Source: Escherichia coli (GTDB lineage Bacteria > Pseudomonadota > Gammaproteobacteria > Enterobacterales > Enterobacteriaceae). From it: DNA of 64,000 bases. The translations under genes were made by a program, and so were the position numbers. Where the stretch lies: assembly GCF_013122565.1 (NCBI RefSeq), contig NZ_CP053258.1; one strand, given 5' to 3'. Under the pieces are notes generated by a model that did no database searches, was not told the DNA's origin, and was given only the letters and a program-made list of their open reading frames with translations. Positions 52,559-64,000 of this stretch are shown in pieces. Each line of letters begins with the position of its first letter. The stretch's first letter is position 1.

Positions 52559-52767
52559 TATCATCTGAATGTATGGTTTTATCATTTGTATTTAATATAT
52601 AAATGATAAAGCCATCTCTTATTGGTTAAATCACTAGTACATGTGAGTGAAATCATTTTGATAAATTTTTAGGAATATATTTAGTTTTTCTGACGTGCCT
52701 TCCTGAATGTTCTGGCATAGAATATTAGAGCTTATTCATCAAATTATCATTGCCACAGGGAAAGTGC

Positions 52768-54942
52768 ATGCTGCGATGGAGTCGCTTTATAATGTTACTA
52801 TTTATCTCTGCTGCAACTCCTGCGGCAGAGATAAATAGTAAGCAAAATGAATCGTTACCTGATTTAGGCAGCCAGGCGGCTCAACAAGTAGAACAAACGG
52901 ATAAGGGTAAATCGTTAAAAGAGCGTGGAGCCGATTACGTCATCGATTCTGCTACGCAAGGGTTCGAAAACCTGACCCCCGAGGCGCTGGAATCTCAGGC
53001 CAGAAGCTATCTGCAAAGTCAAATCACCTCAACCGCGCAATCTTATATTGAAGAGACACTCTCTCCCTACGGTAAGGTCCGTTCGAATCTCTCTATTGGT
53101 CAAGGTGGCGATCTGGATGGTAGCTCCATCGATTATTTTGTTCCCTGGTATGATAATCAAACGACCGTTTATTTCAGTCAATTTTCTGCGCAACGAAAAG
53201 AGGACCGTACGATCGGGAATATCGGAATTGGAGCAAGACATAATTTCGATGAATGGCTTTTGGGTGGAAATATATTTTACGATTATGATTTCACCCGTGG
53301 GCATCGACGTTTAGGTTTGGGGACAGAGGCCTGGACCAATTATTTAAAATTTTCTGGCAACTATTATCATCCGCTCTCTGACTGGAAAGACTCTGAAGAT
53401 TTCGACTTTTATGAAGAGCGCCCTGCGCGCGGTTGGGATATTCGCGCTGAAGCCTGGTTACCTTCTTATCCGCAACTGGGGGGCAAAATTGTCTTCGAGC
53501 AATATTACGGTGATGAAGTCGCCCTTTTTGGTACGGATAATTTAGAGAAAGATCCCTATGCGGTGACGCTAGGACTGAATTATCAACCGGTACCGTTACT
53601 GACAGTTGGAACGGATTATAAAGCGGGGACAGGAGATAACAGCGATGTCAGCATTAATGCCACTCTTAATTATCAATTCGGCGTTCCGCTAAAAGATCAA
53701 CTCGACAGCAATAAAGTAAAAGCAGCCCACTCGTTGATGGGCAGTCGCCATGATTTTGTCGAGCGTAATAACTTTATCGTCCTGGAATATAAAGAGAAAG
53801 ACCCTCTGGATGTGACGTTGTGGCTGAAAGCGGATGCGACCAACGAGCACCCTGAGTGCGTCATTAAGGACACTCCAGAAGCGGCGATCGGGCTGGAAAA
53901 ATGTAAGTGGACCATTAACGCACTGATCAATCACCACTACAAAATTGTCGCTGCGTCATGGCAGGCGAAAAACAATGCCGCCCGCACGCTGGTGATGCCG
54001 GTCATCAAAGAAAATACCATCACTGAAGGCAACAACAACCACTGGAATCTGATACTGCCAGCCTGGCAGTACAGCTCTGACAAAGCCGAGCAGGAAAAAC
54101 TCAACACCTGGCGGGTACGGCTGGCGCTGGAAGATGAAAAGGGTAATCGGCAAAACTCCGGCCTGGTTGAGATCACCGTTCAGCAGGACCGTAAAATTGA
54201 GCTGACCGTCAATAACATTGCTGATGTGCCTGATGAGAATAACCACAGCCATGAAGCCAGCGCTCAGGCGGATGGCGTTGATGGTGTGGTCATGGACCTC
54301 GAGGTGACGGACAGTTTTGGCGATAACACGGACCGCAACGGTGATGCTCTGCCAGAAGATAATCTTGCACCGCAGCTCTACGACGCTCAGGACAAAAAAG
54401 TCACGCTAACCAATAAACCCTGCTCGACCGACAACCCCTGCGTGTTTATTGCCAAACAAGATAAAGAAAAGGGAACGGTAACCCTCTCCAGTACATTGCC
54501 AGGCGTTTTCCGCTGGAAAGCGAAAGCGGCTCCCTACGATGACAGTAACTATGTGGATGTCACGTTTATTGGATCTGATATCGGCGGGCTTAATGCTTTC
54601 ATTTACCGGCTTGGGGGAGCGAAGCCAGTCAATTTGATCGGCAATGATAAAGACCCCCTGCCGCTGGGCAACACGTACCGATTTGTGTTGTGGCGTGATG
54701 CCAACAAAGACGGCGTTTTTCAGCAGTCGGAAAAACTAACCGATGAAGAGATGACTCAGTACGACTACAAGTGGGAATTTACCGGCAAGAGCATCAATGG
54801 CGAAGTAGGTGCGCAGGCGAACACATCCAATGCAGACATTGTAATACCGGCGACCAACCGTGAAGCGGCGCAATCCTATGGTGCAAAAGTGGAAGATGGC
54901 TTGCAGGGTTACGGTTTACGCGTGCTGTACACCAAAAAATAA
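52768..54942 (+). CDS. sinH: Intimin/invasin-family outer membrane protein (inverse autotransporter), SinH-like
   Basis: Signal peptide MLRWSRFIMLLFISAATPAAE; central region aligns by eye with the invasin/intimin beta-barrel domain (…EAWTNYLKFSGNYYHP…ERPARGWDIRAEAWLPSYPQLGGKIVFEQYYGDEVALFG…RNNFIVLEYKE); ATG at 52768 (track ORF starts at upstream TTG). Confidence 0.8.
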   Translation: MLRWSRFIMLLFISAATPAAEINSKQNESLPDLGSQAAQQVEQTDKGKSLKERGADYVIDSATQGFENLTPEALESQARSYLQSQITSTAQSYIEETLSPYGKVRSNLSIGQGGDLDGSSIDYFVPWYDNQTTVYFSQFSAQRKEDRTIGNIGIGARHNFDEWLLGGNIFYDYDFTRGHRRLGLGTEAWTNYLKFSGNYYHPLSDWKDSEDFDFYEERPARGWDIRAEAWLPSYPQLGGKIVFEQYYGDEVALFGTDNLEKDPYAVTLGLNYQPVPLLTVGTDYKAGTGDNSDVSINATLNYQFGVPLKDQLDSNKVKAAHSLMGSRHDFVERNNFIVLEYKEKDPLDVTLWLKADATNEHPECVIKDTPEAAIGLEKCKWTINALINHHYKIVAASWQAKNNAARTLVMPVIKENTITEGNNNHWNLILPAWQYSSDKAEQEKLNTWRVRLALEDEKGNRQNSGLVEITVQQDRKIELTVNNIADVPDENNHSHEASAQADGVDGVVMDLEVTDSFGDNTDRNGDALPEDNLAPQLYDAQDKKVTLTNKPCSTDNPCVFIAKQDKEKGTVTLSSTLPGVFRWKAKAAPYDDSNYVDVTFIGSDIGGLNAFIYRLGGAKPVNLIGNDKDPLPLGNTYRFVLWRDANKDGVFQQSEKLTDEEMTQYDYKWEFTGKSINGEVGAQANTSNADIVIPATNREAAQSYGAKVEDGLQGYGLRVLYTKK

Positions 54943-54996
54943 GATTGGCGTAAGGCCAGTCGGCCAGTCGCTGAAGATTCATTAAGGAGAGACTCA

Positions 54997-55974
54997 ATGA
55001 AGCAGGACAAAAGACGCGGTCTGACCCGGATCGCATTGGCGCTGGCACTGGCTGGTTACTGCGTGACGCCCCTGGCGCTGGCGGAAGACAGCGCGTGGAT
55101 CGACAGCGGCGAGACCAATATTTTCCAGGGGACTATTCCGTGGCTCTACCCCGTTGATGAAGATGAGGTAACTGGCGCGGGTCGGGTGACGTTAACCTCT
55201 GACTATAAAGGTACTCGTCCGTCGGGAAGTACATCCGACAAGCGTATGTACTCTGGCGACAAATTAACGCTCAGTTGGGTGATTGGCGATACTGAAGGCG
55301 ACGTCGATCTTGGTACGGCGGGTAAAGATGCAAAAACCATCGACACCATCCGCTGGATGAGCTACAAGGACGCCCAGGGTGGCGATCCGAAAGAGCTGGC
55401 AACAAAGGTGACCACTTACACCCTTACCGATGCCGACCGTGGTCGTTATATCGGTATTGAAATTACCCCAACCACCCAGACGGGTACGCCATACGTTGGG
55501 ACTGCGCTGCATCTTTATGATGTTTCGAATGCTAACGGCGGGGGAAGCGATAAAGATAACGTTGATCCAGGACCGGTAGTTAACCAGAACCTGAAAGTCG
55601 CCATCTTTGTTAAAGACACCTCGACTAACCTCATTAACGGTAGTACGCCAATCCAGTTGGGCAAAACGTACGTCGCCAAACTGTACTCGGATGAGAACAA
55701 AAACGGTCAGTATGACGCAGGTACTGACGTTGATGTTACCGCCAATTACGACTTCCGTTGGGTTCTTTCTGACACCAGCGATCAGCTCGGTACGGGGGGC
55801 GGCATTGTTAACTCAAGCTTCGATAATCAAAACCTGGTCATCCCTGCGACCAACGACGAAGCCAGAACCAACCTTAACGGCCCTGCTCGTGATGGCAAAG
55901 ATGCCCTTGCGATCCCGACCAACGGCGATGGGGTTCAGGGTTACAAACTGCAGATTATCTACAAACACAAATAA
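54997..55974 (+). CDS. sinI: Secreted protein with SinH-like C-terminal domain, SinI-like
   Basis: Signal peptide MKQDKRRGLTRIALALALAGYCVTPLALA; C-terminus (…LVIPATNDEA…DGVQGYKLQIIYKHK) parallels the SinH C-terminus (…IVIPATNREA…DGLQGYGLRVLYTKK). Confidence 0.7.
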   Translation: MKQDKRRGLTRIALALALAGYCVTPLALAEDSAWIDSGETNIFQGTIPWLYPVDEDEVTGAGRVTLTSDYKGTRPSGSTSDKRMYSGDKLTLSWVIGDTEGDVDLGTAGKDAKTIDTIRWMSYKDAQGGDPKELATKVTTYTLTDADRGRYIGIEITPTTQTGTPYVGTALHLYDVSNANGGGSDKDNVDPGPVVNQNLKVAIFVKDTSTNLINGSTPIQLGKTYVAKLYSDENKNGQYDAGTDVDVTANYDFRWVLSDTSDQLGTGGGIVNSSFDNQNLVIPATNDEARTNLNGPARDGKDALAIPTNGDGVQGYKLQIIYKHK

Positions 55975-55983
55975 CACTTGCTC

Positions 55984-56011
55984 AACAGCATTCCCGCAAG
56001 GGAATGCTGTT
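55984..56011 (+). terminator. Terminator-like hairpin downstream of sinI
   Basis: 12-bp stem aacagcattccc / gggaatgctgtt with GCAA loop, followed by T-rich tccgcatatttt. Confidence 0.6.
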
Positions 56012-56015
56012 TCCG

Positions 56016-56050
56016 CATATTTTGCTTAATCCAGGATTAAGCAAAATATG
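56016..56050. promoter_or_regulatory. Perfect 35-bp palindrome upstream of ratA (candidate operator or attenuator)
   Basis: catattttgcttaatcc-a-ggattaagcaaaatatg: 17-bp arms with no mismatches, 45 bp upstream of the ratA ATG. Confidence 0.4.
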
Positions 56051-56094
56051 TTGATGCGGTAACCGTTCGTTAAATAACTGGTGGAGTTCTTTTC

Positions 56095-59000
56095 ATGTCC
56101 CAGCCCCTGAAACCCGGCACTTTTTATGTTCTGCTTGTATTGCTGCTAACCGCAATGCTGCCGGGATGGTCATGGGCGGGCTCATCATGGCAAGACTCAT
56201 CCGATACGGCGGGTGAATTTAACGGTACCGTCCCCAATGCCGACAGCGCCAGTATGCCGGTTTATCAGGGCAGTATTTGGCTTGATCCTGCAAAGCCCCA
56301 TGATGTTTCGTTTTCCGCTAAACCCAATGAATTTAGCGTTAATCTGGATGTGTCGAAGCTGATTGTGACGAACCCGCAGGACCTGGAAGGCGATGTGTTT
56401 ACCAACCCGCGTTGGGAAAACCAAACGCCGCCAGTGGTCTCTTTAGTCTGGGCGGATGCGGCGACACCGGAAACCCCACTTAATCCTCAGCCAGTGGCTG
56501 GGCGTTCCTTTTGTGCGCAAGGGCTTGCCGGGCGTTCGCTGGTTGTCTGGCCGCAGCCAGACCCACAGCAGACCATGCCGCAGCTTTATCTACGCACCTC
56601 GACAGGTTATCCCTATGAAAGTCTTCTGACGCTTGTCGATAAGAAAGTGACGTTAAATATTGCACCGGCCCAGGGCGACTTAATTTCTGTCAGCGCGGCC
56701 GGTTATGACGACACCGTGGGCGGGGCGAAAACTACCGTTGGCGGCAATATCACGTTGACCGTTACCACCAAAGACTGCAGCGGTAACGTTGCCGGAAATA
56801 TTCCTTTTATTATCAAACGCAAAGATGCTGAAAACCGACAGGGCGCAGTCAACAATGCTTCGCCGGTTGTTCTGGACAAAACTGAACTGACCACTATCGC
56901 GACCGAATATCACAGCACCACGGATGCGAACGGCGTTGCGACGATCACGGTCACGCAACCCAACGGCCCTGGTGTAAAAACGCCGCTGGTAGCCAGTCTT
57001 TCAGGTATTGGTCAAACCAGTGAAACGGCAGTGATCTTTACCGTCCTTACCAGCCCGGATGTCCCTCAAGCCATGATGTGGGGCCATATGCCCGATACGC
57101 TAAAGGCCCATGATTATACGTTCAGTCGGCCAAAACTGGCGGCGGAGGTCGATAACGAAAATGGTACCGTTAACGATCACAATGAAACCTGGTCTACCTT
57201 CACCTGGAATGGTGCGGATAAACATTGCGACATTTTGCCTGGTATGCGCCAGTTTGGCGCGTTGGCAACGGTGGTGCCCACGACAGTTCAGGATCTCGTT
57301 GGTTGGCCGATACAGGGTAACTACTACTGGTCATCACTGGCGGGGATGACCGGACAGCACCATGCGGCGGATGTTTCCAACCGTAGCGAAGCGCAAAAAC
57401 CGGACGATACGACGTTTATTGTCAGTTGTGTCGATAAAGACGCTCCTGACGTTGAACCGAAACTGGTGCTAACACCGGGAAGCTATGATTCGACGTTAAA
57501 GGCGATGAAAGTAAAGGTGGGGGAAGAAGCGTCTCTGCGTGTAACCATCACCGATAATAAAAACAATAATCAACCGCTGGCGTATTACTACTTTTCGTTA
57601 CATCTGGATGACGGCATCAACCGTAAAAATCAATCGGATGCGGCATGGGAAGCGCATCCGGTGCAGATAGCGGGTGGCAGCAATGTCCATCAGGTTGACG
57701 CGCATACCTATGAAGGCATTACGGATGTGAACGGTCAGGCATCACTGACGCTAACGCAACCGGGCGGCGCGGGCGTGAAAACACACATTACTGCGAAAAT
57801 GCGCAGCGACTTCACCACGTCGGATGAGAAAGACGTGATTTTTACAGTCATTACCAGCCCCGATACTGACAAAGCCCGGATGTGGGGGCATATGCAGGGT
57901 ATTATTGATTCTAATAATATCTTTAAACGTCCACGGCTGGCAGATGAAACCGACCATGAACTCGATTCAGTGCGAGAGAACAACGAAGACTGGGCGCTGT
58001 TCGACCAAAATGGCAGCATGCAGGCTGAATGTGGTGTAGGTCATATTCCGAGCCAGAATCAATTACAGGGTCTGTTCACGGCGCATCCTGGCAATGCGAT
58101 TGGCACCGAATATGGCTGGCCGACGGCGCAAAAAGATTACCTTAGTGCGGTACAACAAGAGCCACACTCCTCCGTGAACCTGGGCACAGGTAACATCGAC
58201 ACCTATTCAGGCTTTAAGCAGAACTATCTCTCCTGTTCCGGTAATGAGATGGTTGCTCAGATTACCGCAACGACCGATCATGACGTTTCCGTGGGTAGCA
58301 GGGCGCAGGCTAAAGTTGGAGAAACCGTCACCATGACGGTGCATACCTTCAATGCACTGAATAATGCGCCCGTGCCGTTTACCGCCTTCAGCATCACAAA
58401 GGAGATGGGTAAAAACCGTCAGGGGCAGACTACCGGATATACCGATCCGACGAGTGGCGCAATTGAGATGAATGGCAAGCTCTACGGAACATCCCAGGCC
58501 TCGGTGGTTTATTCCGGGACTACGGATGCACAGGGCTACGCAACGGTGGAGATTGAACAACCGCAGGGCGTGGGCTTAGCGACGCCGCTAAATATTGCGC
58601 CTGTGAACTCCTACATTCCCAATACAGTAAATTACAACGTGATTTTCACCACGCCTACCAGCCCGGATGCGGTGGCGGCGCAGATGTGGGGGCATATGGA
58701 TGAGACTATTACAGTCGATTCTTTAACCTTCACCCGGCCTAAACTGGCAGCGGAAGTTTCCAGCCCGGATGCGACATTGACAGAAAATAATGAAGTCTGG
58801 GCGCGTGTGAGTCAGGCGAATACATCCAGTATAAGTAAAGGTGGCTGCGGAGCGAATATGCTGCCGCGTCGATCCCAGCTTAGCGCGCTCTATGATGCCA
58901 ATAACGGTAATGCTGTACAGACAGTACACGGCTGGCCAACTCTGCGTGAGCCTTACTGGAGTAGTTCCCCTGCGGATAAAGTTCCTCATTTTTACACCAT

Positions 59001-62000
59001 TGCTCTCAATGATGGCGCACAGGCTATTGGCGGTAGCAACGCGGTTTATGTCAGCTGCCTGACGACGGCAAATAATCCTGCAAACGCTATTACTTTAGAG
59101 GTGGTGGATCAGGCGCAATGGAACGCGACGGCGAAAGCGGCGAAGCTGAAAAAAGGCGAAACGCTCCAGGTTAAGGTAACGGTGAAGGATGCTCAGGGCA
59201 ATGCACTGTCGGATATGCCATTCACCCTGAAACGTGGCGATGGTTATACTCGCTCAAATGAAAAACATATTGCTGGCAGCGGGGATGCGCTGGTTGCGCC
59301 AGTCATCGTCAACGGTGGCCTGACGGATGAGACTTCACTGAATGACACCGCGACAGCATACGCTACCATGACCGGCAGCGACGGCACTAAAATACTTACC
59401 ATAACCCGCCCTGAGACGCATGGCACCAAAACGGCGCTGATCGCTGCGCTGTATTCTGATGCAACGAAAAACGCCAGCCTCGACACCATTTTTACCGTTG
59501 CGACCAGCCCGGACAGCGATAAGGCGAAAATGTGGGGGCACATGGCGGAAACGGTGACGGCTACTGACGGCACGGTATTTAAACGCCCGCGCTTACTGAA
59601 AGAGTGGTCAACTCAGTCCTCTCTTACTGAAGATAATGAGGTCTGGGGGTTGTATAACATCAGCGATGCAAAATCTACCAGCAATGGCTGTGGCGCTAAT
59701 TATGTTCCTGCGCAGGTTGGGCTGGAGTCACTGTTTGACAATAACCGCAGCAACGCGATGAAAACCGTACAAGGTTGGCCGGTAGATACCCATTATCTTT
59801 CAAATACCTCAAGTACCGACAGTTTATCGCAGCATAATTACAAAGCCGTGGATCTGGGCAATGGTACCAGTACCTCAATATCCGCTTCCGAGAGGAAGTT
59901 GTTAACCTGCCAGACGACCGCGGTGTTACAGGCAAGCCAGATTCTGCTGGACGCAGCGGATCCAACCACCTTCGACAGCACAAATAATGTTGTCAAAGTT
60001 AAAAAAGGCGAAGCGGCAGTGGTGCGTGTAACCACGAAGGATTCGCAGGGGAATCCTGTAGGAAATACCGCATTTACCCTCAAACGAAACCACAGCGTGA
60101 ACAGGGCTAATGCGTCGAATACCACGTCGATTGCTTCACTGGTGGTAACGGATGCATGGGGAAATACTCAGGACAGTTTTCTTTCAACGTCCCTGGTCAT
60201 ATATGGCGTAACGGGGGCCGATGGCACCACCACCTTTACACTGAAACAAGACCAGTCTACCGGCTTAAAAACGGAACTCACGGCAGCGCTGGACTCCTCC
60301 AGCAGCATTACATCGTCGCTTCCCGTCGTCTTTACGGTGCTTACCAGCCCGGATTCGCCAAAAGCCAAATTCTGGGGGCATATGGCTGAAACGGCGACAG
60401 GCGATGACGGTCTCATTTATAAAAGACCATTGCTGAGAGACGAGATTAGCGCCTCTAGCGGTATCAGCACCCTGACAGAAGAGGGGGAAAACTGGTCTGC
60501 ATTCTGGGCGAACAATGCTAATGATACTTCGATAAGTGGTTGTGGCGCAGAGTATGTTCCCTCTGCCGATGAACTTAAGGCCATTTATGCGCACCAGGGG
60601 GGGAGCGCATTGCATGGTGCTATTGGCTGGCCAGTTTCGAAGCCCTATATCTCGAATACCGTCGCAGATATGTTCACTCAACCCTTTAAGTTTGATGTCG
60701 TTTCGCTGAAGACAGGAGATGAAACACAGATTTCATCAGGTAGTGGTGTAGGGCCTCTGAGTTGCCGGACCACACCTGTCGCCGTTGCCAGTCAGATCAT
60801 TGTTGAGGCGAACGATGCGGCGCAATTTGTCAAAGTTGACGATACCTTGAGTGCACTGAAAGTGAAAAAAGGTGAAGACGCGGTGATTCGCGTGGTGACC
60901 AAGGATGCGCAGGGGAATACCGTGCCCAATGTTCCCTTTATTCTCAAGCGCGAGGGCTCGAGAAACCGTCAAAATGTCGAGATGATAAACAAATCGATTA
61001 CGGTGATTAACGCGGCAGGGACTTCTACGAATGTGCTTAGTTCGTCAACACTGCTTTATGGGGTAACGGGCGCGGACGGGACTACCACGTTTACAGTAAA
61101 ACAAGATGATTCTATGGGTCTGATGACCAATATGTACGCTCAGTTGTATCAGTCGACGATAGAATCCAACAAATTACCGGTGATGTTTACCGTTATAACC
61201 AGCCCGGATACGCCTCTGGCAAACTACTGGGGGCATATGTCTGAAACCTTCACGACAAGGTCGGGGGTTGTCTTCAAGCGGCCAATGCTTAGTGCCGAGC
61301 ATCCAGCGGGGCAGTCAACCGTGGATAATAATGAAACCTGGCTTTCCTTGAATACAGCAGCAAAAAATGATGTCAGCAAATCAGGCTGTGACGAACCTTA
61401 TCAACCGTTATTAAGCGAACTTCAGGAGTTGTACAGTGAACATCCTAATGGTGCGATAGGAACCGATTTAGGCCTGCCGCTGACGAAAACCTGGTGGGCT
61501 TACGATAAAGTGGCCAACTCGAATGCCTGGTACGATCAGTCTGTTAATTTGTCGAATGGGTCAAGCGCCAGGGCGTCGTCAACCACCGTGGCGTTTGTGC
61601 CCTGTCTGGTAAACCCTCATCCAGTGGCTGCTTCTATTGAGATAACCTCCACGGCACTGGATGCGGAGAAAACGGCCAGTAACGATGGTCGCCCCAGCGC
61701 AACCGCACCGAAAGGTACGGCGATCCGGATGACGGTGATTGTGCGGGATAGCGCAGGAAATCCATTGCCCGGCGCCAACTTTAACCTCGTACGCGGGACG
61801 GCATTGGATCGTGCAAAATACAGTGTCGATAGTTCAGCTGATGATCTTACTCTCGTGCCTGTCACGCCTGCTGGCGTAAATATGACTCTCACGAGTAATA
61901 CATCAAAAGCACTGTTGACGACAGGCAGTGATGGTAAAGTGACCTTTGATGTGACGCAAAACGGGACTTATGGGCTGGCAACCCCGCTCACTGCAACATT

Positions 62001-64000
62001 GCTACGCGACACTTCAATAAGCGCCACGATGGATGTCATTTTCACGGTGATAACCAGTCCCGACTCACCGAAAGCAAAATACTGGGGTCATATGCCCGAC
62101 ACGTTTACCAGCAGTGCGGGGGTGACCTTTAAACGGCCGCTACTGGCAGCCGAAGCGACCTCCGGGTCCTCGGTTGGCAGTAATAATGAGTCGTGGTCAT
62201 ACATTGGTATTAACGAAAGAGCTACGTCGGATTGCTCACTGGAGTATCAGCCGCGTCTTAATGAGTTACAGGGGTTATATAACGATCATCCTGGCGGGGC
62301 CATACAGACGGATCTGGGGTTACCTGTAGCTGCCGGAAGTGGAAACTGGTGGGCTTATGAAATGAGTATGCCTAACCCCAGCGGGTCGGTGTGGTTTTAC
62401 GGCATCATTAATTTGAAAACGGGACAATCGTCGACCACGTCGAGTGGATTCGCTTTAATGCTCTGCCTGACGCAGCCGCATACGGTACCGGCAAGCCTTA
62501 CACTGTCATCAACCGCCTACGATGAAGGCAGAACCGCCAGCAATGGTGGCACACCTACGTCATCTGTGAAAAAAGGTGAGACGCTTCCCTTAGTGGTGAC
62601 GATCAAAGATGCCAATGGTAACCCCGTTGGCGGCGAAGGCGTTACGCTCAAGCGCGCGCAGGCGAAAAGCCGTTCAGGTATCTCTGTCTCCCCCACTACC
62701 GCCGATGATCTTATTTTAAATGAAGTCACACCGGAATCAGCCAGCTTTTCCTTCGCCGCGGATTTGGCATCATGGAGCGGCATCACCGGCAGTGACGGCA
62801 CTGTAACGTTCAATATTACACAAAAAAATACAATCGGCCTGGTAACGCCGTTTACAGCCTCATTGGGGCGAAATCCGCAGGTCACCGCCAACCAGGACCT
62901 GATGTTCACGGTGGTAACCAGCCCGGATTCGCCGAAGGCAAACTACTGGGGGCATATGCCAGCAACCTTGACGGCAGTGAATGGTGCGGTATTTGAACGC
63001 CCGAAATTGTGGAGTGAACTGCCATCGACCTCCGGCGTCGGCAAGATCAATAACAATAATGAGGACTGGCCGTACTATTCACCGACAAAAAAATCTGATG
63101 AGAGTGTGACCCCTTGCGAAGTGGCAAGACAGCCTCTGCTTAGTGATTTAAATTCGCTGTCTGCGCGTTATCCGAATAACTCCTTCGCTGCTGAAACGGG
63201 CTGGTCTGTGTATTACACCTGGTGGGCAGAGGATAAATCCGCCGCGGGTAAAGATCAGTCGGTGGATTTGAGAGATGGCACGCTGTATACGTATGCATCA
63301 GGAGCATTTCAACCTTGCCTGGTTAACGCGCGTTCAACTGTTTCTAGCGTCACACTTACCTCAACGGCGTTTGACGCTACCACTCAGGCGGCGAAAGTGA
63401 AAAAAGGCGAAGCCATGCCGGTGACGGTCACGGTGAAAGACAGCGCCGGGAAAACGGTGCCGAATGTGGCTTTTACCCTGAAACGCGGTGATGCTGCGCC
63501 AAGAAACCCTGGTATGGCCTTGTACGGTGATGTGGATGCGATGGATGACCTGACCGTTCAACCGACATCGGGAGCGGCGGTGACGTGGTCTGAAAGTGGC
63601 AACTTGCTACAGGGGACCACTGGCTCTGACGGCACCGCGACGTTTATGATTAAACAGGATCATTCGCCGGGCTATAAAACCCCTTTGACGGTCACGTTGG
63701 ACAATAACACCAGCATCACTGCGACAATGGACGCTATTTTCACCGTCGTGACCAGCCCGAATGTCTCAAGCGCCTATTACTGGGGGCACATGGCAGATAC
63801 GACCACGGTGAACGGTAAAACACTGCATCGCCCGTTGTTGGCATCGGAGCTACCTGCGAATGCTTCTTCCCCAGCCACGCCTGACGTAAACAATGAAGCC
63901 TGGGCTATGGGGCATATGGTGGATTCAAGGAATTGGGATATCGAGGCGCAGTGTGGCAGCTTGACCAACGCGCCAAACGATGACGACTTAATGGGTCTGT
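56095..64000 (+). CDS. ratA: Giant repetitive surface/secreted protein, RatA-like; 3-prime end beyond window
   Basis: ATG at 56095 preceded by GGTGGAG; signal-peptide-like N-terminus [28 protein letters not shown]; the frame has no listed ORF (no in-window stop) and every repeat landmark checked lies in this frame; synteny after sinH-sinI. Confidence 0.8.
57049..64000 (+). repeat. In-frame tandem repeats within ratA (~805-865 bp, ~270-290 aa each, at least 9 copies)
   Basis: Motif accagcccggat (TSPD) followed ~30 nt later by tgggg(g)ca(t/c)atg (WGHM) recurs at 57049, 57853, 58657, 59503, 60343, 61198, 62053, 62917 and 63751. Confidence 0.9.

What the first reader, a model, noticed from the sequence alone, without database searches (positions are those of the whole stretch)
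54600..55974. SinI carries a domain paralogous to the SinH C-terminus
The last ~100 residues of the 730-aa inverse autotransporter and of the 325-aa downstream protein share an ordered set of motifs: LG(N/K)TY, D(A/E)NK(D/N)G, YD(Y/F)(K/R)W, (I/L)VIPATN(R/D)EA and DG(L/V)QGY(G/K)L(R/Q)(V/I)(L/I)Y(T/K)(K/H)K. SinI therefore looks like a barrel-less copy of the SinH passenger tip, which could act as a soluble competitor, a co-secreted partner or a decoy.
Basis: seen in the sequence. Interest (0 to 1): 0.4.

Follow-up and report, generated by a model that had tools for sequence, protein, structure and literature searches.

The report
SinI shares SinH's tip domain
The small protein SinI, encoded just after the surface adhesin SinH, really does carry a copy of SinH's outermost domain, but this was already published and annotated; its other half matches the start of the giant neighbouring adhesin RatA instead.

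Summary
SinH residues 627-730 and SinI residues 210-325 align at 36% identity (BLASTP E=9e-12; Smith-Waterman z=20 against shuffles), and all five motifs occur in the same order in both. The shared unit is a ~125-residue C-terminal Ig-like domain. It is SinH "Ig-like domain 3", the published "receptor-binding domain" and SinH-3 vaccine antigen.

It is not new. Heinz 2016, citing Kingsley 2003, and Goh 2019 describe SinI as a barrel-less protein similar to SinH's Ig domains and propose a ZirT/ZirS/ZirU-like partner system. NCBI already names it "SinI family autotransporter-associated protein".

SinI is not just a copy of the tip. Its N-terminal ~60% has no similarity to SinH. It is related to the N-terminus of the downstream RatA-like adhesin, through a conserved post-signal-peptide tag T-x-[IF]-x-G-T-x-P plus a D-T-E-G-D strand, and remotely to ZirU.

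sinH-sinI-ratA order is conserved in every complete enterobacterial locus I fetched. The domain occurs only as a SinH/SinI pair. SinI evolves 2-5 times faster than SinH but under purifying selection.

Best reading: SinI is an exported partner of SinH. This is inferred, not shown; an AlphaFold fusion gave no evidence of docking.

The parts
52768..54942 (+). sinH, an intimin-like inverse autotransporter. The ORF is open from TTG 52750 (730 aa); the RefSeq-type start is ATG 52768 (724 aa).
   Evidence: NCBIfam inverse_SinH scores 1465 bits against a cutoff of 999. The orthologue is annotated sinH in E. coli MB53 at 97.6% nucleotide identity.
52951..53772 (+). SinH outer-membrane beta-barrel domain (residues 68-341 in 730-aa numbering).
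   Evidence: Pfam PF11924 IAT_beta, E=1.9e-107.
54565..54939 (+). SinH C-terminal domain (residues ~606-730). [quoted passage not shown]
   Evidence: BLASTP E=9e-12 to SinI 210-325; alignment A2. PMC9937491 defines SinH-3 as residues 602-724 in 724-aa numbering.
54697..54732 (+). EF-hand-like 12-residue loop DANKDGVFQQSE in the SinH C-terminal domain (residues 650-661).
   Evidence: Across 30 SinH/SinI domains: position 1 D 29/30, position 3 N/D 28/30, position 5 D/N 28/30, position 6 G 23/30, position 8 aromatic 30/30, position 12 E 25/30. Calcium binding is inferred from the pattern only.
54943..54996 (+). sinH-sinI spacer of 54 bp, with ribosome-binding site AAGGAG at 54984-54989. No hairpin or terminator.
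   Evidence: Sequence. No terminator-like site in the scan. Co-transcription of sinH and sinI is reported in PMC12525524.
54997..55974 (+). sinI, the SinI-family autotransporter-associated protein (325 aa).
   Evidence: NCBIfam partner_SinI scores 321.9 bits against a cutoff of 165. A 100% identical protein is annotated in E. coli (P0001).
54997..55083 (+). SinI signal peptide (residues 1-29, MKQDKRRGLTRIALALALAGYCVTPLALA|ED). The AGYC motif is not a canonical lipobox.
   Evidence: Read from the sequence: a basic n-region, a hydrophobic core and an A-L-A cleavage motif. Conserved in 34 homologues. No predictor was run.
55084..55146 (+). SinI N-terminal tag (residues 30-50, EDSAWIDSGETNIFQGTIPWL). 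It is predicted disordered and is shared with RatA.
   Evidence: pLDDT 27-33. G45 and P48 are invariant even in distant family members. The motif is found almost only at SinI, RatA and third-gene N-termini: 46 of 50 hits in 383,000 ORF residues.
55183..55521 (+). SinI domain 1 (residues ~63-175), a beta-sandwich with the GDTEGD strand. Related to the RatA N-terminus and remotely to ZirU.
   Evidence: AlphaFold strands and pLDDT 57-92. hhalign to RatA-N. ZirU_fam hits in 14 of 34 homologues.
55522..55572 (+). Gly/Ser/Asp-rich inter-domain linker (residues 176-192).
   Evidence: pLDDT below 50 at residues 180-187; alignment A1.
55573..55971 (+). SinI C-terminal domain (residues 193-325), the paralogue of SinH domain 3.
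   Evidence: AlphaFold pLDDT 68-93.
55690..55725 (+). EF-hand-like loop DENKNGQYDAGT in the SinI C-terminal domain (residues 232-243). Position 12 is T in this allele.
55984..56011 (+). Conserved GC-rich hairpin followed by a T-run, directly after the sinI stop codon. Probably a partial intrinsic terminator.
   Evidence: The spacer folds at -47.3 kcal/mol against -24.7 +/- 3.2 for shuffles. It is conserved in 19 loci; 7 of 10 pairs show compensatory changes. The T-run is only TTT in this window and TTTT-TTTTT elsewhere, so the consensus scan did not call it.
56015..56051 (+). Second hairpin / palindrome with invariant core TTTGCTTA-N-TAAGCAAA, about 45 bp upstream of ratA. An RNA element or an operator.
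   Evidence: One copy in the window (0 expected) and one per locus in 21 loci, always in this spacer. The outer pairs covary. No Rfam match.
56095..64000 (+). ratA-like giant adhesin gene. It is open for more than 2635 codons and runs off the end of the window.
   Evidence: Translation without a stop codon. NCBIfam RatA-like, E=3e-241.
56179..56409 (+). RatA mature N-terminus: the tag [19 protein letters not shown] (residues 29-47) and the strand ending DLEGD (to about residue 105). Homologous to the SinI N-module.
   Evidence: hhalign aligns 67 columns at E=2e-5. The permutation control gave 0 of 150. 4 of 14 RatA N-termini hit the curated SinI HMM, best E=3.2e-6.

Best explanation
SinI is the Sec-exported, barrel-less partner protein of the inverse autotransporter SinH. 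It is built from two borrowed modules.

Module 1 covers mature residues 30-175. It is a short disordered tag (…T-x-[IF]-x-G-T-x-P…) followed by an Ig-like domain. The downstream giant adhesin RatA also has this module at its N-terminus, and it is remotely related to ZirU.

Module 2 covers residues 193-325. It is an old paralogue of SinH's most distal Ig-like domain (D3). It includes a conserved EF-hand-like loop, an [IL]-V-I-P-x-T-N-x-x-A motif and the terminal D-G-V-Q-G-Y strand.

Shown here: the homology, the domain boundaries, and the strict sinH-sinI-ratA order across Enterobacterales. Also shown: the domain occurs exactly twice per complete locus (always C-terminal, never in RatA), both genes are under purifying selection, and the layout is bicistronic with a conserved hairpin after sinI.

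Inferred: SinI crosses the inner membrane by Sec. Its N-module is the element recognised for SinH-dependent export to, or retention at, the cell surface, as ZirT does for ZirS and ZirU. Once outside, its D3-like domain supplies a second copy of the tip's binding activity, either free or docked on SinH. RatA would use the same N-module to enter the same route.
For: - Homology of the C-terminal domains.
- No barrel, two beta-sandwiches and a disordered N-terminal tag.
- Only generic Ig/FnIII structural matches.
- sinH-sinI-ratA order is kept wherever the contig is complete, in the 22 genome loci plus 4 more, covering Escherichia, Salmonella, Citrobacter, Kluyvera, Pseudocitrobacter, Superficieibacter, Leminorella, Buttiauxella and Lelliottia.
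- A profile of the domain against 1.84 billion representative proteins gave only 66 hits. The strong, full-length ones lie at the C-terminus of SinI-sized (~300-400 aa) or SinH-sized (~730-750 aa) proteins or are fragments of them. The weak multi-stretch hits are DxNxDG-type loops in unrelated repeat proteins.
- In 2722 ORF segments the domain HMM hits only SinH-sized and SinI-sized ORFs or truncated fragments of them, at or within about 15 residues of the C-terminus, never RatA.
- In two distant systems the inverse autotransporter's own C-terminus again matches its partner's C-terminal domain (L024 domain E=3.5e-7; L026 E=7e-4).
- SinI-N is related to RatA-N: hhalign E=1.6e-9 with signal peptides and 2e-5 without. 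The reversed control gave 0.22 and 0 of 150 permutations reached the score. 4 of 14 RatA N-termini hit the curated SinI HMM..
- The tag motif is essentially restricted to the N-termini of SinI, RatA and the third-gene proteins.
- Third genes in Buttiauxella and Lelliottia join the same N-module to an intimin-like Ig plus lectin tip.
- ZirU_fam hits in 14 of 34 SinI homologues. ZirS and ZirU are secreted in a ZirT-dependent way (PMC4943183, PMC2270342).
- dN/dS is 0.10-0.31 for sinI, so it is a functional gene.
- The 54-bp spacer has a ribosome-binding site and no terminator, and a conserved, covarying hairpin follows sinI.
- Co-transcription of sinH and sinI is reported in PMC12525524.
Against: - No experiment shows that SinI is secreted or binds SinH.
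- An AlphaFold2 run on a SinH-linker-SinI fusion with 15 paired sequences gave pLDDT 57.6 and pTM 0.31. The SinI tag stayed below pLDDT 50 with no strand, so no docking was predicted. This is weak evidence, because the alignment was shallow and no error map or coordinates were available.
- SinI alleles are shuffled relative to SinH alleles. For example, SinH is 87% identical to the window in genomes whose SinI is either 66% or 43% identical. The distance correlation between the SinH and SinI C-terminal domains (r=0.55) is no better than between the SinH barrel and SinI (0.50). This argues against a tight, allele-specific contact between the two domains.
- IatB (SinH) mediates biofilm formation without the downstream gene (PMC6714894).
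- One distant SinI-like gene has no neighbouring inverse autotransporter (L025).
- Sequence-to-profile search with the SinI-N model does not reach RatA. Only profile-profile comparison and a curated HMM do.
- How a folded substrate could pass a barrel already plugged by SinH's own linker is unresolved (PMC4943183).
Confidence: 0.55

Rival explanations
1. Decoy or competitor. SinI is released as a soluble copy of the SinH tip. It either occupies the host receptor or soaks up antibodies raised against SinH domain 3.
For: The shared domain is exactly the protective antigen SinH-3, also called the 'receptor-binding domain' (PMC9937491). SinI is the fastest-evolving gene of the locus: 36-73% identity where the SinH barrel is 74-91% (57% in Buttiauxella). 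Its dN/dS is 2-5 times higher. E. coli carries at least three deeply diverged sinI allele classes. All of this fits immune pressure on an exposed protein.
Against: The paralogues are only 31-36% identical in every genome. The split predates the family, since distant systems show the same pairing, so shared antibody epitopes are unlikely. There is no sign of gene conversion keeping the two copies alike. A decoy does not explain the N-module shared with RatA. dN/dS is below 1 throughout.
Confidence: 0.1
2. Periplasmic assembly factor. SinI remains in the periplasm as a dedicated two-Ig-domain chaperone. It holds the SinH passenger and/or RatA in an export-competent state, for example by pairing its D3-like domain with SinH D3.
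For: SinI is a signal-peptide protein of about 30 kDa with two Ig-like domains and no anchor. Ig-fold periplasmic chaperones are well known, and Heinz 2016 raises this role for IgSF domains. It is made in a fixed bicistronic unit with sinH.
Against: There is no Pfam match to PapD-like chaperone families. Housekeeping chaperones are usually well conserved, whereas SinI is hypervariable. SinH works in biofilm assays without the downstream gene (PMC6714894). The related ZirU and ZirS are found outside the cell.
Confidence: 0.15
3. No functional coupling. The shared domain is only the trace of an old duplication or domain shuffle. SinI now acts independently of SinH, for example as a free periplasmic or secreted binding protein exported by another route.
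For: An orphan SinI-like gene exists without an adjacent inverse autotransporter (L025). There is no co-evolution signal between the two C-terminal domains. No complex was predicted.
Against: Gene order is invariant and the spacer is tight across many genera. The domain never occurs outside SinH/SinI-type pairs. The pairing recurs in distant systems. Natural in-frame sinH::sinI fusions are tolerated.
Confidence: 0.1

Closest known systems
SinH/SinI (SivH/SivI) of the Salmonella CS54 island, and IatB with EcSMS35_2660 in E. coli
   Same: This is the same locus. SinH and SinI exceed the NCBIfam equivalog and subfamily cutoffs, and the gene order der - zinc-ribbon gene - sinH - sinI - ratA is the same. 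The similarity of SinI to SinH's Ig domains and its lack of a barrel are already stated in PMC4943183 (citing Kingsley 2003) and PMC6714894.
   Different: The window carries a rare, divergent sinI allele. Only 10 of 5426 complete E. coli genomes reach 90% nucleotide identity or more. It is about 44% identical in amino acids to the Salmonella and ST131 types, and it lacks the 'GNLKxGQWQ' start of the common tag. The papers I could read do not delimit the shared domain and do not mention the SinI-RatA N-terminal relationship.
ZirT / ZirS / ZirU of Salmonella, an inverse autotransporter with secreted barrel-less partners
   Same: An inverse-autotransporter gene is followed by genes for signal-peptide-bearing, barrel-less Ig-like proteins that resemble the transporter's own passenger domains. 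SinI domain 1 is remotely related to the ZirU family (14 of 34 homologues, best E=3.5e-8). Secretion of ZirS is ZirT-dependent (PMC2270342).
   Different: SinI scores far below the ZirU family cutoff (22 bits against 100), so it is not a member. SinH-dependence of SinI is untested. The third gene here is a giant adhesin of more than 2600 residues. I could not obtain ZirS or ZirU sequences to check whether they carry the tag.
Classical two-partner secretion (TpsB/TpsA, e.g. FhaC/FHA)
   Same: The logic is the same: a separate outer-membrane transporter, Sec-exported substrates, and a conserved N-terminal element on the substrates. Here that element is the tag and domain shared by SinI and RatA, which could play the part of the TPS domain.
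   Different: There is no Omp85/POTRA transporter and no TPS domain with NPNL/NPNGI motifs (no Pfam hit; Gal-Mor 2008 notes the same for ZirS). The transporter is a 12-strand intimin-type barrel that also carries its own passenger.
Receptor-binding tip domains of intimin and invasin
   Same: It is the most distal, C-terminal passenger domain of an inverse autotransporter, and the most variable part of SinH (59-80% identity where D1-D2 are 64-94%, in the enterobacterial loci outside Buttiauxella).
   Different: It is an Ig-like sandwich, not a C-type lectin-like domain. It has no detectable sequence relative in the PDB and only generic Ig/FnIII structural matches. Unlike the intimin and invasin tips, it is duplicated on a separate barrel-less protein. 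In Buttiauxella and Lelliottia the third gene does carry an intimin-like Ig plus lectin tip.

Membership tests
SinI family autotransporter-associated protein (NCBIfam NF040711) | Whole-protein HMM score at or above the curated cutoff of 165 bits | tested here: met
   321.9 bits, E=4.6e-96, covering residues 7-322.
SinI family autotransporter-associated protein (NCBIfam NF040711) | Encoded immediately downstream of sinH | tested here: met
   54-bp spacer in the window. The same arrangement is seen in all loci with enough flank.
SinH intimin-like inverse autotransporter (NCBIfam NF033423; Pfam IAT_beta) | [quoted passage not shown] | tested here: met
   1465 bits. PF11924 E=1.9e-107, residues 68-341.
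ZirT/ZirS/ZirU-type inverse-autotransporter partner system | Barrel-less, signal-peptide-bearing Ig-like protein encoded downstream of an inverse autotransporter and resembling its passenger | tested here: met
   The signal peptide was read from the sequence; no predictor was run.
ZirT/ZirS/ZirU-type inverse-autotransporter partner system | Secretion of the partner depends on the inverse autotransporter | not testable with these tools
   Needs fractionation of wild type against a sinH deletion. The AlphaFold fusion was uninformative.
ZirU family (NCBIfam NF040485) | Score at or above the curated cutoff of 100 bits | tested here: not met
   22 bits, E=1.5e-4, residues 76-208. 14 of 34 homologues hit at E below 0.01, best 3.5e-8. 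This is remote homology of one domain, not membership.
Classical two-partner secretion substrate (TpsA) | N-terminal TPS (haemagglutination activity) domain with NPNL/NPNGI motifs, and an Omp85/POTRA transporter | tested here: not met
   No Pfam family other than a weak IG_AIR9 hit in SinI at E up to 1. The adjacent transporter is IAT_beta, not Omp85.
PapD-like periplasmic chaperone (rival explanation) | PapD_N / PapD_C domains | tested here: not met
EF-hand-like (DxDxDG) calcium-binding loop | 12-residue pattern D-x-[DN]-x-[DN]-G-x-hydrophobic-x-x-x-E | tested here: met
   Column counts over 30 SinH/SinI domains. In the window's SinI, position 12 is T.
EF-hand-like (DxDxDG) calcium-binding loop | Binds Ca2+ | not testable with these tools
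   Needs calorimetry, a 45Ca overlay or a structure.
Lipoprotein | Lipobox [LVI][ASTVI][GAS]C at the end of the signal peptide | tested here: not met
   The sequence is L-A-G-Y-C, with Y at position -1. The hydrophobic core continues to A-L-A|E.

The most novel reading that the evidence does not exclude
The disordered tag and first Ig-like domain shared by SinI, RatA and the Buttiauxella/Lelliottia third-gene proteins form the missing 'address label' of inverse-autotransporter two-partner export. It would be functionally equivalent to the TPS domain and recognised by SinH. SinH would then be a platform that exports or docks interchangeable tip modules: a D3 copy on SinI, a giant repeat adhesin on RatA, and a lectin tip in Buttiauxella. 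SinI's D3 paralogue would cap or extend the SinH stalk in a calcium-dependent way.
Probability: 0.25. Interest if true: 0.6.

Novelty: already known. Interest (0 to 1): 0.27.

Why it matters
SinH domain 3 is being developed as a vaccine antigen against extraintestinal E. coli (PMC9937491). The same bacteria make, from the same transcript, a second exported protein with a diverged copy of that domain. This bears on antigen choice, on cross-reactivity, and on what the 'receptor-binding domain' actually does.

More generally, it is unresolved how barrel-less partners of inverse autotransporters (ZirS, ZirU, SinI, RatA) reach the surface. The conserved N-terminal tag shared by SinI and RatA gives a concrete element to mutate. 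As a discovery, however, the SinH-SinI similarity itself is old and already annotated.

Tried and rejected
1. AlphaFold2 of mature SinH + 50-residue Gly-Ser linker + mature SinI, with 15 paired sequences. Confidence was low and the tag stayed disordered. No error map or coordinates are returned, so the result is uninformative rather than negative.

3. Sequence and profile searches of the PDB with SinI, the N-module and the C-terminal domain. No solved relative was found.

4. A word-indexed protein search with the N-module profile returned only SinI fragments. It found no RatA or ZirU, so it could not widen the family.

5. hmmsearch of the SinI-N model against all ORFs does not reach RatA. The relationship therefore rests on profile-profile comparison with controls, the curated SinI HMM, and the position-specific motif.

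6. A mirror-tree test for co-evolution of the two C-terminal domains gave no signal beyond background.

7. Pairwise BLAST of SinI against the RatA N-terminus was not significant on its own.

8. Ideas considered and dropped:
- The tag mimics the first strand of the C-terminal domain (a donor-strand idea). The register does not match.
- The NGT in the RatA tag is a glycosylation sequon. SinI has QGT.
- SinI is a lipoprotein. It has no lipobox.
- SinI domain 1 is a copy of SinH D1 or D2. hhalign gives E>=0.3.

9. Kingsley 2003 and Prehna 2012 could not be read. Their content is cited only through PMC4943183.


Full report
**What is at the coordinates.** The window region reads bamB, der, a small zinc-ribbon gene, then sinH. 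sinH runs 52750/52768-54942 (730 aa from TTG, 724 aa from the RefSeq-type ATG). It is followed by sinI (54997-55974, 325 aa) and a ratA-like gene that starts at 56095 and is still open at the window end after more than 2635 codons. The best E. coli match is strain MB53 at 97.6%, annotated "intimin-like inverse autotransporter SinH", "SinI family autotransporter-associated protein" and "adhesion domain-containing protein". Both proteins exceed NCBI's curated cutoffs: SinH scores 1465 bits against 999, and SinI 321.9 against 165. SinH has a Pfam IAT_beta barrel at residues 68-341.

**Checking the observation.** BLASTP aligns SinH 627-730 with SinI 210-325 at 36% identity, E=9e-12 with compositional adjustment. 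Nothing else in the two proteins aligns significantly.
- The Smith-Waterman score is 140, against 30.3 +/- 5.4 for 2000 shuffles (z=20.5).
- The curated SinI HMM hits SinH 625-727 (E=1.2e-21), and the SinH HMM hits SinI 208-325.
- All 34 diverse SinI homologues hit the SinH model's C-terminus.
- A joint alignment of 10 SinH and 20 SinI C-termini extends the domain to about 125 residues (SinH 606-730, SinI 193-325). Its invariant positions include Y, W, P-x-x-N-x-x-A and D-G-x-Q-G.

**It is already known.** Heinz et al. [quoted passage not shown] 2003)". They also propose a ZirT/ZirS/ZirU-like translocator-substrate relationship. Goh et al. 2019 (PMC6714894) say the same for E. coli IatB (=SinH) and its downstream gene. 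Xing et al. 2023 (PMC9937491) define SinH "Ig-like domain-3" (residues 602-724) as the putative receptor-binding domain and use it as the vaccine antigen SinH-3. That is exactly the domain shared with SinI. I found no experimental work on SinI itself.

**Anatomy of SinI.** An AlphaFold2 model built from 34 homologues (mean pLDDT 67) shows the following:
- a signal peptide (residues 1-29);
- a disordered but sequence-conserved segment (30-62);
- a beta-sandwich (63-175);
- a Gly/Ser/Asp linker (176-192);
- a second beta-sandwich (193-325, pLDDT 68-93).

**The other half of SinI is not SinH-like.** Profile-profile comparison of the SinI N-module with SinH D1-D2, the whole passenger or the periplasmic N-region gives E>=0.3. 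The same N-module matches the mature N-terminus of the RatA-like protein.
- hhalign gives E=1.6e-9 with signal peptides and 2e-5 without. The reversed control gives 0.22.
- The real score is 39.7, against 12.9 +/- 2.3 (max 20.6) for 150 column permutations.
- 4 of 14 RatA N-termini hit the curated SinI HMM, best E=3.2e-6.
- The aligned core is a tag directly after the signal peptide, followed by a strand ending D-T-E-G-D. The tag reads SinI …W…T-N-I-F-Q-G-T-I-P-W and RatA …W…[10 protein letters not shown].
- A loose regular expression for the tag hits 50 of 2722 ORF segments (383,000 residues). 46 of the 50 are the N-termini of SinI-like, RatA-like or "third-gene" proteins.
- G and P of the tag are invariant even in SinI-like proteins only about 20% identical overall.
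- In Buttiauxella and Lelliottia the third gene encodes a 360-413 aa protein. It joins either the SinI-type or the RatA-type N-module to an intimin-like Ig plus lectin C-terminus.
- SinI domain 1 is also remotely related to ZirU (14 of 34 homologues, best E=3.5e-8), well below the family cutoff.

Limitations: HMM-to-sequence search does not connect SinI-N to RatA, and pairwise BLAST does not either. Heinz et al. described Rat N-termini only as "highly divergent". The papers I could read do not report this shared module.

**Distribution and context.** A scan of one genome per species returned 22 loci, and four more were fetched by exact protein. Wherever the contig is complete the order is sinH-sinI-ratA (or another third gene). 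This holds in Escherichia, Salmonella, Citrobacter, Kluyvera, Pseudocitrobacter, Superficieibacter, Leminorella, Buttiauxella and Lelliottia.
- A profile of the shared domain against 1.84 billion representative proteins found only 66 hits. The strong, full-length ones lie at the C-terminus of SinI-sized or SinH-sized proteins or are fragments of them. The weak multi-stretch hits are DxNxDG-type loops in unrelated repeat proteins.
- Against every ORF of all fetched DNA, the domain occurs only in SinH- and SinI-sized ORFs or truncated fragments of them, at or within about 15 residues of the C-terminus, and never in RatA.
- In two distant systems the inverse autotransporter's own C-terminus again matches its partner's C-terminal domain: L024 domain E=3.5e-7, and L026 E=7e-4 as a split match. 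The pairing is therefore old.
- One distant SinI-like gene is an orphan, with no adjacent inverse autotransporter (L025).

**Evolutionary rates.** I compared each domain with the window copy in the same genomes. The figures are for the enterobacterial loci outside the two Buttiauxella loci, where SinH is 28-57% identical.

| Region | Identity to window |
|---|---|
| SinH barrel | 74-91% |
| SinH D1-D2 | 64-94% |
| SinH D3 | 59-80% |
| SinI N-module | 36-62% |
| SinI C-terminal domain | 39-73% |

- dN/dS is below 1 everywhere: 0.03-0.07 in sinH and 0.10-0.31 in sinI. sinI is a functional gene evolving 2-5 times faster, without gene-wide positive selection.
- SinI allele types are decoupled from SinH types. 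The SinH-D3 / SinI C-terminal-domain distance correlation (0.55) is no better than the barrel / SinI correlation (0.50).
- Paralogue identity is 31-36% in every genome, so there is no recent gene conversion.
- In E. coli, sinI is present once in 1696 of 5426 complete genomes. Relative to the window, 10 genomes are at 90% nucleotide identity or more, 928 are at 80-90%, and 758 are at 60-80%, including ST131.

**Transcription layout.** The sinH-sinI spacer is 54 bp, with a good ribosome-binding site and no hairpin. Co-transcription is reported in PMC12525524. The sinI-ratA spacer folds into two strong tandem hairpins: -47.3 kcal/mol against -24.7 +/- 3.2 for shuffles, z=-7.1.
- Across 19 loci the first hairpin shows compensatory changes in 7 of 10 pairs and is followed by a T-run. 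This is the hallmark of an intrinsic terminator, although the run is short (TTT) in this window.
- The second hairpin has an invariant palindromic core, TTTGCTTA…TAAGCAAA, that occurs once per locus and only there. It has no Rfam match.
- This supports sinH-sinI as a fixed bicistronic unit, with ratA expression separately modulated.

**How it most likely works (confidence 0.55).**
- Shown: SinI is a modular, barrel-less protein. Its C-terminal domain is a paralogue of SinH's distal domain, and its N-module is shared with RatA. It is always encoded next to SinH and is under purifying selection.
- Inferred from established type Ve and Zir knowledge: SinI is Sec-exported. Its N-module is the element through which SinH, the only outer-membrane component of the locus, exports or retains it. 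RatA would use the same route. The D3-like domain then provides a second copy of the tip's binding activity.
- Against this: the AlphaFold fusion of SinH and SinI gave no ordering of the tag (pLDDT below 50) and a poor overall model (pTM 0.31). There is no co-evolution signal. SinH acts in biofilm formation without the downstream gene. The barrel-occupancy problem is unsolved.
- Rivals: periplasmic chaperone (0.15), decoy or competitor (0.10), no functional coupling (0.10).

**Verdict.** The tip-domain paralogy is right, 'co-secreted partner' is the best-supported option, and 'copy of the tip' misses the RatA/ZirU-like N-terminal half. The modest additions here are:
- the exact domain limits and their identity with the SinH-3 antigen;
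- the EF-hand-like loop;
- the exclusive paired occurrence of the domain;
- the SinI-RatA N-terminal tag;
- the hypervariability of sinI;
- the conserved hairpins after sinI.

Noticed in passing
window 55084-55146 (SinI residues 30-50) and 56179-56235 (RatA residues 29-47): SinI and the RatA-like giant adhesin share a conserved tag right after their signal peptides (…W…T-x-x-[IF]-x-G-T-x-P), followed by a D-T/L-E-G-D strand. The motif is essentially confined to the N-termini of barrel-less proteins in these operons. The inverse-autotransporter papers I read do not describe it.
   Followed up: yes
window 55984-56011: A GC-rich hairpin with a T-run lies directly after the sinI stop codon. It is conserved in 19 loci with compensatory changes in 7 of 10 pairs. 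It is probably a partial intrinsic terminator separating sinHI from ratA. The T-run is weak (TTT) in this window.
   Followed up: partly
window 56015-56051: A 17-bp-stem hairpin / palindrome with invariant core TTTGCTTA-N-TAAGCAAA lies about 45 bp upstream of ratA. There is one copy per locus in 21 loci and none elsewhere in the window. It has no Rfam match. It could be an operator or an RNA element.
   Followed up: partly
window 54697-54732 and 55690-55725: Both copies of the shared domain contain a 12-residue loop matching the EF-hand calcium-binding pattern (D-x-N-x-D/N-G-x-aromatic-x-x-x-E), conserved across 30 sequences.
   Followed up: partly
L022 8382-9470, L018 1758-2864, L020 8417-9658 (Buttiauxella, Lelliottia): In place of a giant RatA, the third gene encodes a 360-413 aa protein. 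It joins the SinI-type or RatA-type N-module to an intimin-like Ig plus lectin-like C-terminus (intimin model positions about 780-870). This is a barrel-less 'tip module'.
   Followed up: partly
proteins P0155, P0152, P0157 and P0161-P0164: Natural in-frame deletions fuse the SinH barrel and first passenger part to the middle of SinI (e.g. P0155: SinH 1-447 joined to SinI ~130-321) or to RatA repeats. The junctions are not in the shared domain.
   Followed up: partly
L025 7001-8074 (CP050253.1, 2.6-Mb genome): A distant SinI-like gene (P0193) sits alone between slyX and an EamA transporter gene, with no inverse autotransporter within 7 kb.
   Followed up: no
window 52768-56400 compared with L001, L032, L003, L008: Synonymous divergence between E. 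coli alleles of this island is very high (dS 0.5 to more than 1.6), and the pattern is mosaic. Against strain MB53, the 123 codons of the SinH C-terminal domain have dS=0 while the flanks have about 0.1. This suggests old allelic lineages and recombination.
   Followed up: partly
window 52573-52615: An AT-rich perfect hairpin (19-pair stem) lies in the 190-bp gap between the zinc-ribbon gene and sinH, in an AT-rich putative promoter region.
   Followed up: no
window 54997-55083: The SinI signal peptide is unusually conserved for a signal peptide. L14, A19, G20, C22, P25 and A29 are invariant in 34 homologues that are only 42-85% identical overall.
   Followed up: no
protein P0179: A SinH-like database protein shows systematic T-to-I/V/M and P-to-L/F type replacements. 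It looks like a translation of C-to-T converted or damaged DNA, so it is a database artefact.
   Followed up: no
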